Source: Rhizodiscina lignyota (lineage: Eukaryota). Taken from it: a DNA stretch of 64,000 nt. The position numbers were made by a program, and so were the translations under genes. Positions 57,379-60,567 of this stretch are shown here, piece after piece (positions within the stretch are counted from its first letter, which is position 1; each line of letters opens with the position of its first letter). The stretch lies in the NCBI GenBank assembly GCA_010015805.1, contig ML978121.1, positions 3,658,001-3,722,000 on the forward strand. The letters run 5' to 3'. Below the pieces are notes generated by a model. It saw nothing but the letters and a program-made list of their open reading frames with translations, did not search any database and had not been told where the DNA came from.

Positions 57379-58241
57379 CTAGGTAAACACCTTGCCGCCG
57401 TTAGCACAGGTGGTCGAGCCGGTAATCCAACGCGCTCCCTCCTCACACAGAAACGCAACAATGGGCACAATGTCGTCAACTTCCCCAACTCGCGGAGCTG
57501 CAGGTGTGCTGTTAATATATGGATCGAATTGATCCAACAATTCCTGCGGCATCTCCCTGTGTACATTGTCAGTGGGCATGGCTATAGTGCCAAAGGAGAG
57601 AGGGTGTACTCACGTCCACATGTCCGTATTCACAGGCCCTGGATTCACATTGTTAACGGTGATCCCATATTCGTGGCCCAGCTCTACGCTCCACGTTCGG
57701 GCAAAGCTGTCCATGCACGCTTTCGTGGCGCCGTACGCAGTGTGCATCTTCCAGCCTGCAACAAGATCAGCAGGTCGAATCAAACTTTCTCGTGAGCCCT
57801 ACCTTCTCTCGACACCACACTCCCAATATTCACAATCCTTCCTCCCCTCCGCAGAAACGGCAGACTTTCCTTCACCAAGAACATCGGAAACCGAACATTC
57901 GTCGTGAAGACCTTCTCGTAATGCTCATACGTCACGTCCTTCAGATAGCACTCGTCACCGGCGGCAGCATTGTTGATGATGATGTCAATTCCGCCATCGA
58001 AAGACTCGACGGCTGTCTTAATGACCAGAGCGGGCGTGTCTTTGTCCATGCAATCTGCCTTTAGGGCGACTGCTTCTCCGCCGGCGGATTTGATGTCCTG
58101 CACCACGGAGTCCGCTGCGGCTGCGGTGGAGGCGAAAGTGAGGAGCACTTTGGCGCCGCGATGGGCTAGTTCTTTTGCTATTCCGGCGCCGATGCCGCGA
58201 GAACCGCCGGTGACGATGGCTACTTTGTTTGTGAGAGACAT
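57379..58241 (-). CDS. Short-chain dehydrogenase/reductase (classical SDR)
   Basis: TGGSRGIG, INNAA, YGATK catalytic motif, VNNVNPG, WITG..ANGG; introns 57756-57802 and 57557-57613. Confidence 0.92.
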
Positions 58242-59608: not shown

Positions 59609-60567
59609 ATGCCCTTTATTACTGTCAAAGACGGTGCGGAGATCTTCTATAAGGATTGGGGCAATCCAGAAGGCCCCGTCGTCTTCTTTTCCCATGGCTG
59701 GCCCTTGAGCAGCGATAACTTCGAAGCTCAAATGTTCTTCATGGCAAACCAAGGCTGTCGTGTTGTCGCCCACGACCGCCGTGGCCATGGACGTTCGAGC
59801 CAGGTCTGGGAAGGCAACAATATCGATCAGTGGGCTGATGATTTGGCGGAGCTTTTTGAGAAGCTCGATGTGAAGGAGATGATGATGGTGGGCCACTCAA
59901 CTGGAGGCGGTGAGATTGTCAGATACTGTGCTAGGTATGACACGTCACGAGTCGTTCAGGTTCTCTCTGAGATAATACTAATAGATTTAAATTCCAGGCA
60001 TGGCACTTCGCGTGTGTCCAAGCTCGTGCTTATTGATTCAACCCCGCCATTCATGCTCAAGTCGGAGACCAACACGGCCGGAGTGCCTATCGAAGTCTTT
60101 GATGGCTTCAGAGCGGCCATGGAGAAGGATCGCTCCCAATTCTTCTTTGATGTGGCATCAGGCCCATTCTATGGCTTCAATCGCGAAGGTGCAAAGAAGA
60201 GTGATGGCATCATTTACAGCTGGTATGAGACCAACCCGCCCCATCAATTCAATGCGACTTCCATCGCTGTTATCTGACAAGTTGTAGGTGGCAACAGGGA
60301 ATGATATCGGGCTTCAAGGCAACCTACGACTGCATCTCATTCTGGCATACAGTTGATCAGACGGAAGAGATGAAGAAGATAGATGTTCCCACGCTTATCA
60401 TCCATGGAGATGATGATCAGATCGTTCCGATTGACTGCAGCGCTCGTCTTGGGATAAAGCTTCTGCCCAAGGGCAAATTGATTGAATTCCCCGGAGGTCC
60501 ACACGGCCTTCCGAATATAGAGCCGGTCTGGGTGAACGAGCGTTTGTTGGAATGGTTGAAGTCATAA
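59609..60567 (+). CDS. Non-heme (cofactor-free) chloroperoxidase/perhydrolase, alpha/beta hydrolase
   Basis: IFYKDWG, FSHGWPL, HDRRGHGRS, GHSTGGGE, IHGDDDQIVP, PHGL; introns 59935-59997 and 60223-60287. Confidence 0.92.

What the first reader, a model, noticed from the sequence alone, without database searches (positions are those of the whole stretch)
59935..60050. In-frame intron that looks like a diverged copy of the exon after it (possible intron gain by tandem duplication)
Seen: the 63-nt intron (AG|GTATGA..CTAAT..CCAG|GC) has no in-frame stop and translates YDTSRVVQVLSEIILIDLNSR, while the next exon starts HGTSRVSKLVLIDSTPP. Both share TSRV and LID, and the differences there are at third codon positions (ACG/ACT, TCA/TCG, CGA/CGT, GTC/GTG, CTA/CTT, ATA/ATT). 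Established: duplication of an AGGY-containing exon segment is a proposed but rarely documented route to new spliceosomal introns, and this enzyme family is bacterial-type so its introns are presumably gains. Inference: the intron came from an intragenic duplication, and the synonymous bias suggests the copy was, or still is, sometimes translated.
Basis: partly seen in the sequence, partly recalled or inferred. Interest (0 to 1): 0.72.

Follow-up and report, generated by a model that had tools for sequence, protein, structure and literature searches.

The report
Gained fungal intron, faint exon echo
A fungal enzyme gene of bacterial type has gained a small intron whose first 18 bases faintly echo the exon behind it; this may be the worn trace of a local duplication but is about as likely to be chance, and nothing shows that the copy was ever translated.

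Summary
The 63-nt, stop-free intron is real; the spliced gene equals an annotated 276-aa fungal non-heme chloroperoxidase-like protein. It is a gain: 0 of 26 homologous loci, and not the paralog, have it.

The likeness to exon 2 is confined to the first 18 nt (13/18). The rest is at chance level (11/45; 6/28 against exon 1). Per-intron tail probability runs from 1e-4 to 1e-2 depending on the statistic. A duplication model wins only 4- to 15-fold, and a recent duplication is rejected. 'LI' of 'LID' is the branch site CTAAT. The third-position bias needs no translation.

New here: 14 other fungal clusters appear, from protein ORFs only, to carry an intron 2 nt further on (His110, phase 1). The tree puts this gene outside that group, though not decisively (AU p=0.050).

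Verdict: about 50% chance likeness at a proto-splice site, 35% old untranslated duplication, 9% shifted or replaced intron, 6% once-translated copy. No RNA data were available. The scan noted clearer duplication introns elsewhere in this genome (unchecked).

The parts
59609..59934 (+). Exon 1 (coding part), with nucleophile motif GHSTG; ends inside the Arg109 codon (AG|)
   Evidence: Spliced model identical to annotated protein P0001; matches solved non-heme chloroperoxidases 4dgq and 1a8s
59935..59997 (+). Intron 1: 63 nt, phase 2, GTATGA donor, CAG acceptor, no in-frame stop; GC 51% in the first 37 nt, 19% in the last 26
   Evidence: removing it restores a gap-free alignment to homologues
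59978..59982 (+).
   Evidence: CTAAT in 21 of 89 control introns; homologous ORF P0152 also reads L-I near the 3' end of its own intron
59931..59952 (+). First copy of a degenerate 22-nt direct repeat spanning the donor site
   Evidence: 16 of 22 identical to 59994-60015; best partial-copy fit 18 + 4 nt
59994..60015 (+). Second copy of the degenerate repeat, spanning the acceptor site
59998..60222 (+). Exon 2, starting G|CAT (His110)
60223..60287 (+). Intron 2: 65 nt, phase 2 in Trp184; also begins GTATGA; no likeness to its flanks
   Evidence: log10 BF about -2
60288..60567 (+). Exon 3 to the stop codon

Best explanation
An ordinary, constitutively spliced U2-type intron, gained in this lineage by a non-duplicative insertion at the AG|GCATGG proto-splice site of a once intronless, bacterial-type alpha/beta-hydrolase gene. 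The site already resembles a donor, so the first six intron bases match the exon start for free. About nine further matches in twelve bases are a chance run that a genome-wide read will meet now and then. Splicing restores the normal 276-aa enzyme. Shown: gene structure, gain, limits of the likeness. Inferred: constitutive splicing (annotation only, no RNA) and the insertion route.
For: Likeness stops at nt 18 (11/45 and 6/28 beyond). Without the donor bases, 506 of 43472 cross pairs score as high. The observed whole-intron score lies in the lowest 8-20% of simulated true duplicates at divergence 0.45-0.8 and below all 300 at 0.2. 44 of 89 control introns start GTAYG and 8 start GTATGA, as does intron 2. 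Among AG|GY flanks 1 of 1040 foreign introns reaches 13/18; with 5 of 209 introns at AG|GY sites and about 20,000 introns per genome (recalled, not measured) that is about 0.5 cases per genome for this fixed window, and more for a free choice. Stop-free 3n length is common: 18 of 63 non-3n control introns are stop-free, 2 of the 14 His110 introns read through, and so do the 54- and 57-nt introns at codon 60. The other gained introns of the family that could be scored (7 loci plus intron 2) show no flank likeness.
Against: 0 of 89 high-confidence control introns and 0 of 209 candidates reach 13/18 or the peptide score against their own flanks; 0 of 89 reach either model score. Both duplication models are favoured (log10 BF 0.62-0.93 and 1.19). 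AG|GY flanks only 3 of 89 control introns. Intron and exon share a TCN serine codon where most homologous loci use AGY (13 of the 14 distinct loci with serine in register, my count). The match is exactly in register with the splice sites, as duplication predicts.
Confidence: 0.5

Rival explanations
1. Old local duplication, never translated. Either a 63-nt tandem duplication around AG|GC (Rogers model, GC donor later changed to GT), or a direct repeat of about 22 nt with AT-rich filler left by break repair. The intron copy then decayed neutrally while the exon changed mainly at third positions.
For: In-register 16/22 repeat across both splice sites. BF about 4-8 (whole) and about 15 (partial); tails 38 and 14 of 7832 cross pairs. 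AG|GY site. Gain shown. One constrained and one neutral copy predict the excess of third-position differences. Precedent in fungi: 1 tandem duplication among 76 gained Neurospora introns, and direct repeats at 42% of gains (PMC4317165, passages).
Against: No likeness in the 3' two-thirds, none to exon 1 (suffix score reached by 46% of cross pairs). Longest exact repeat across the borders is 3 nt. Recent duplication rejected (log10 BF -3 to -6 at divergence up to 0.1). His is nearly invariant at this position (34 of 36 fungal-type segments), so the donor would have begun as a weak GC.
Confidence: 0.35
2. Shift or replacement of an older intron. The gene descends from the subfamily with an intron at His110 phase 1, and that intron slid 2 nt or was replaced in one event, for instance a failed cDNA-guided loss that duplicated bases around the old junction.
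For: 12 of 120 short ORFs break right after Arg109 with residues that fit C|GTGAGT, C|GTAAGT or C|GTAC. Two read-through ORFs show both ends. One fragment is 109/109 identical to an annotated spliced protein. The AU test does not clearly reject grouping this gene with them (p=0.0503).
Against: The tree makes this gene sister to P0268, which reads through the site (98/95), near the intronless paralog and outside the His110 group (the quick 94-row tree agrees). The constrained tree is 43.5 log-likelihood units worse. A 2-nt slide needs two compensating changes. The His110 intron is inferred from protein ORFs only.
Confidence: 0.09
3. Duplicated segment first kept as a translated 21-residue loop insertion (or still retained in some transcripts), then turned into an intron.
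For: 3n and stop-free. The family tolerates insertions of 1, 3, 4 and 12 residues in this loop. The AlphaFold model of the retained form puts the insert in a low-confidence loop (pLDDT under 50 at 109-116 and 118-128) with the following strand formed by the exon copy.
Against: Third-position pattern expected without translation. Constrained-copy model no better. The intron has Asp at a near-invariant Gly and scores negative on the family profile after TSRV. No homologue carrying a similar insertion among the best 120 hits of each of three searches. Canonical donor, branch site and acceptor; the source annotation splices it.
Confidence: 0.06

Closest known systems
[quoted passage not shown]
   Same: New intron position, AG|GY at both borders, coding sequence unchanged after splicing, in-register likeness to the adjacent exon.
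   Different: The Neurospora case is a 614-bp, 100% identical copy; here 13 of 18 nt match and the rest is at chance level, with no close relative to show the state before duplication.
Near intron pairs and proto-splice-site gains (Drosophila, PMC2891723, passages)
   Same: Two positions under 32 nt apart (here 2 nt) in homologous genes; the novel one has AG/GY. On their 15-nt test the site scores 6 against a control mean of 3.5 (6 of 89 controls reach it).
   Different: The pair here lies in different subfamilies on the best tree, so parallel gain is at least as likely; all 18 of their duplication introns had stop codons, this one has none.
Intron gain by break repair (NHEJ) with short direct repeats (PMC4317165, passages)
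   Same: Repeat spans both borders; filler of unknown source.
   Different: The repeat is about 22 nt and degenerate; the exact 5-bp criterion is not met (3 nt).
Intron colonisation of bacteria-derived fungal genes (alpha-amylase of Basidiomycetes, PMC3584928, passages)
   Same: Bacterial-type gene gaining introns in fungi, with lineage-specific positions, possible parallel gains and sliding.
   Different: This family is intron-poor: 0-2 introns in the loci read, many members intronless.
Non-heme chloroperoxidases / perhydrolase-type alpha/beta hydrolases (PDB 4dgq, 1a8s, 1a88)
   Same: E 2.5e-68 and 4.4e-66 to 4dgq and 1a8s; GHSTG motif; no gaps once spliced.
   Different: Fungal-type clade, 100/100 apart from the 7 bacterial rows used as outgroup; activity untested.

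Membership tests
Tandem-duplication (Rogers) intron | AG|GY at both borders | tested here: met
   AG|GT donor, AG|GC acceptor; 3 of 89 control introns have AG|GY flanks
Tandem-duplication (Rogers) intron | Intron equals start of downstream exon plus end of upstream exon along its length | tested here: inconclusive
   13/18 at the 5' end, then 11/45 and 6/28; log10 BF 0.62-0.93; recent copy rejected
Tandem-duplication (Rogers) intron | Position is new (absent from relatives) | tested here: met
   0 of 26 loci covering the site (27 fetched) and not in the paralog; one ORF (P0196) ends R-Y here and is ambiguous; an intron 2 nt away in another subfamily
Tandem-duplication (Rogers) intron | Protein unchanged after splicing | tested here: met
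   Spliced model equals P0001 and aligns without gaps to the paralog and most loci
Tandem-duplication (Rogers) intron | Close orthologue in the pre-duplication state, and splicing shown by RNA | not testable with these tools
   Highest full-length identity among tree rows 68%; the only run listed is one set of assembled contigs identical to the window, not on record as RNA
NHEJ-type gained intron | Exact direct repeat of 5 bp or more across both borders | tested here: not met
   Longest exact repeat 3 nt; 20 of 89 controls reach 5
Intronization of exon sequence | 3n length without a stop | tested here: met
   63 nt, no stop; weak, as such introns are common
Intronization of exon sequence | Relatives keep the same segment as coding sequence | tested here: not met
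   No similar 21-residue insertion among the best 120 hits, nor in 26 loci
Introner-like element | Several near-identical copies in the genome | tested here: not met
   Only the self match for either intron; the tool warns that a blank does not prove rarity
Slid or replaced intron (near intron pair) | Gene nested among relatives with the neighbouring position | tested here: inconclusive
   Outside on both trees; AU p=0.0503
Non-heme chloroperoxidase family | Alpha/beta-hydrolase sequence with GxSxG nucleophile motif and likeness to solved members | tested here: met
   G95-H96-S97-T98-G99 invariant in 44 rows; PDB hits. No NCBIfam cut-off was reached by the two pieces scanned
Non-heme chloroperoxidase family | Perhydrolase or halogenating activity | not testable with these tools
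   Needs an enzyme assay

The most novel reading that the evidence does not exclude
The intron is the product of a failed, cDNA-guided loss of the older His110 intron: repair copied bases from both sides of the old exon junction and made a 63-nt in-frame duplication in a loop that tolerates insertions. The extra copy was translated for a time, then became an intron through a GC-to-GT change and a new branch site. One event would then explain loss, gain and a 2-nt shift.
Probability: 0.04. Interest if true: 0.65.

Novelty: new member of a known kind. Interest (0 to 1): 0.27.

Why it matters
Source sequences are known for few gained introns, so a proven fungal case from an AG|GC site would add one more example of an accepted mechanism. 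This one is too decayed to prove without close relatives. The more useful by-product is the family itself: an intron-poor, bacterial-type fungal gene with scattered gains (codons 41, 60, 68, 109, 110, 136, 184, probably 188), two of them 2 nt apart, which suits a study of parallel gain against sliding. It also shows two traps: branch sites translate as L-I or L-T, and third-position differences between matched residues do not prove selection.

Tried and rejected
1. RNA evidence: no RNA holder listed; the one run laid is contigs identical to the window, with no variants or joints. This is no evidence either way.
2. Introner origin: own-genome DNA searches gave self matches only.
3. Intron 3' half as a copy of the end of exon 1 (shared GAGAT): suffix score reached by 20012 of 43472 cross pairs; rejected.
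4. Alternative same-length splice using CAG|GTTCTC at 59960 and AAG| at 60022: the acceptor would lie 45 nt from the branch start (controls 11-24, a range partly set by my finder) and skip CCAG; a T at donor +3 could not be scored because my finder excluded it. Judged unlikely, untested.
5. Family profile: intron peptide reached by 2 of 50000 shuffles but also by 1 of 209 real candidates; it adds nothing beyond TSRV.
6. AlphaFold model of the retained form (mean pLDDT 69.5, truncated at residue 205): uninformative on retention.
7. Control introns are my own predictions from 664 kb (2% of the genome): 209 candidates, of which 48 stop-free 3n ones were dropped and 89 kept as high confidence. With all 209 the whole-intron score was reached by 7 own pairs and 303 of 20785 cross pairs; several of those look like exon sequence.
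8. The metagenome pattern required S-D-N-[W/F]-E, so it missed most of the His110 subfamily; no DNA for that intron was obtained.
9. Literature: two searches (listings only) showed no paper on this gene or intron; subscription journals are not covered. Searches were used to find mechanism papers; supplements were not opened.
10. The scan's notes by sequence gave one unrelated bacterial window.

Full report
Gene and observation. The region lies in a three-exon gene on the + strand (59609-59934, 59998-60222, 60288-60567). The spliced product is letter for letter the 276-aa protein P0001, which its source names a non-heme chloroperoxidase of Rhizodiscina lignyota. It matches solved bacterial enzymes (4dgq E 2.5e-68, 1a8s E 4.4e-66), with a break exactly at the intron. 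Intron 1 is 63 nt, phase 2 in Arg109, AG|GTATGA..CTAAT..CCAG|GC, with no in-frame stop.

Is it a gain? Yes for this exact position. The same genome holds an intronless paralog (G000:C24, 66% identical). A metagenome scan for a fungal-type motif gave 27 loci; 26 cover the site and none has an intron there. Some have introns elsewhere (codons 41, 60, 68, 136). Fungal-type rows are separated from 7 bacterial outgroup rows with 100/100 support. This fits a bacterial-type gene that gained introns lineage by lineage, as described for a fungal alpha-amylase (PMC3584928, passages). Transfer from bacteria was not itself tested.

How strong is the likeness? In register, 13 of the first 18 intron bases match the start of exon 2, or 16 of 22 with four upstream bases. 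Beyond that it is chance: 11 of 45 against exon 2 and 6 of 28 against the end of exon 1, with a chance rate of 0.246. As controls I predicted 209 introns from 664 kb of the genome and kept 89 as high confidence. Of 43472 cross pairs, 4 reach 13/18, 11 the peptide score and 99 the anchored ungapped score; 506 do so when the six donor bases are ignored. Among flanks that are AG|GY, 1 of 1040 reaches 13/18. No own pair reaches 13/18 (0 of 209).

Model tests. A pair-HMM for a whole-intron tandem duplication gave log10 Bayes factor 0.93 or 0.62, depending on the background set. It peaks at divergence 0.45 and falls to -3 to -6 for recent copies. It was reached by 38 of 7832 high-confidence cross pairs and 0 of 89 own pairs, but by 7 of 209 own pairs in the loose set. 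Simulated true duplicates usually score far higher (median 3.7 at divergence 0.45; 8% as low as observed). A short-repeat-plus-filler model gave 1.19 (14 of 7832). Intron 2 and seven scored introns of homologous loci were all negative. The signal is therefore unusual per intron but of a size that a genome can give by chance: about 0.5 cases for the fixed window, taking about 20,000 introns (recalled). I took a prior of 2-3% (my estimate, near 1 of 76 gains in Neurospora, PMC4317165 passages), a factor of about 6 for the AG|GY site (my estimate) and about 5 for the sequence. That puts duplication of any kind near 40%.

The translation argument fails. L-I in 'LID' is the branch site CTAAT, found in 21 of 89 controls; an unrelated intron in P0152 also reads L-I near its 3' end. 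If identical residues are picked first, all six third positions differ with p about 0.16. If only the exon is constrained, 54% third-position differences are expected and 7 of 10 are seen (p=0.24). Constraining both copies does not improve the fit. Stop-free length is common: 18 of 63 non-3n controls have no stop in frame, and read-through 3n introns occur at codon 60 and at His110 in relatives. In favour of tolerance, relatives carry insertions of 1-12 residues in this loop, and the model of the retained form leaves the insert as a low-confidence loop. That shows it might be harmless, not that it is made.

A second intron position 2 nt away. Of the best 120 short ORFs, 12 leave the family sequence right after Arg109 and continue R-E, R-K, R-T or R-R, as C|GTGAGT, C|GTAAGT or C|GTAC donors would give. 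P0125 is 109/109 identical over exon 1 to P0015, an annotated spliced protein labelled Hypoxylon argillaceum, and P0240 and P0241 read through stop-free introns showing both ends. So 14 clusters appear to have an intron at His110 phase 1; this is inferred from proteins, with no DNA seen. On a 48-row tree this gene is sister to P0268 (98/95), which reads through the site, and lies outside the His110 group (the 94-row quick tree agrees, with one His110 fragment placed among intronless rows). The AU test is borderline (p=0.0503). Parallel gain is the simpler reading; a shift or replacement is not excluded. PMC2891723 (passages) treats such near pairs as sliding or duplication; PMC2740785 (title and two passages) calls sliding and intronization rare in Cryptococcus.

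Relation to known work. Tandem duplication is an accepted route, with 188 events tallied and in vivo support (PMC3443670, passages), though proven sources are few (PMC4974935, abstract, introduction and start of methods). This intron meets the border and novelty criteria, is inconclusive on homology, and cannot be filed as a member. No RNA holder was listed and no close orthologue was found. Two searches showed no paper on this gene. The scan's earlier notes list clearer duplication-type introns elsewhere in this genome; I did not check them.

Verdict. A real gained intron. Chance likeness at a proto-splice site 0.50, old untranslated duplication 0.35, shifted or replaced intron 0.09, once-translated copy 0.06. 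Interest 0.27.

Noticed in passing
P0121, P0122, P0123, P0124, P0125, P0126, P0128, P0131, P0134, P0136, P0145, P0152, P0240, P0241: ORF ends imply a widely shared intron at His110 phase 1, 2 nt from this gene's intron: a near intron pair in one gene family. No DNA seen.
   Followed up: partly
P0196 (C-terminus): A fungal-type ORF ends R-Y at this site; it may have an intron at the same Arg109 phase-2 position, or simply be cut off.
   Followed up: no
P0268, around Gly188: The nearest homologue has a 16-residue in-frame insertion that looks like a read-through intron about 11 nt downstream of this gene's intron 2: possibly a second near pair.
   Followed up: no
L077 (site around codon 110), P0095, L072, L071: Coding insertions of 12, 4, 3 and 1 residues in the same loop; L077's has a small internal repeat (SGYGSYGS).
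   Followed up: partly
L078, site codons: An intronless homologue also has AGG CAT GG here, so the AG|GC site exists without an intron (1 of 26 loci).
   Followed up: yes
G000:C24:189135-189461 (L002): Intronless paralog, 66% identical, annotated as P0254; the window's copy has the longer branch (0.44 against 0.19).
   Followed up: partly
window 59972-59997: The last 26 nt of intron 1 are very AT-rich (19% GC; only 1 of 89 control introns is as low).
   Followed up: partly
window about 57380-58241, - strand: Divergent neighbour gene with a TGGSRGIG motif, like a short-chain dehydrogenase (family name recalled), apparently with an intron near 57600-57800.
   Followed up: no
G000:C2 near 1051390 (+), candidate 82-nt intron: One control candidate scored as high against its own downstream flank on the gapped prefix score (35 against 33).
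   Followed up: no
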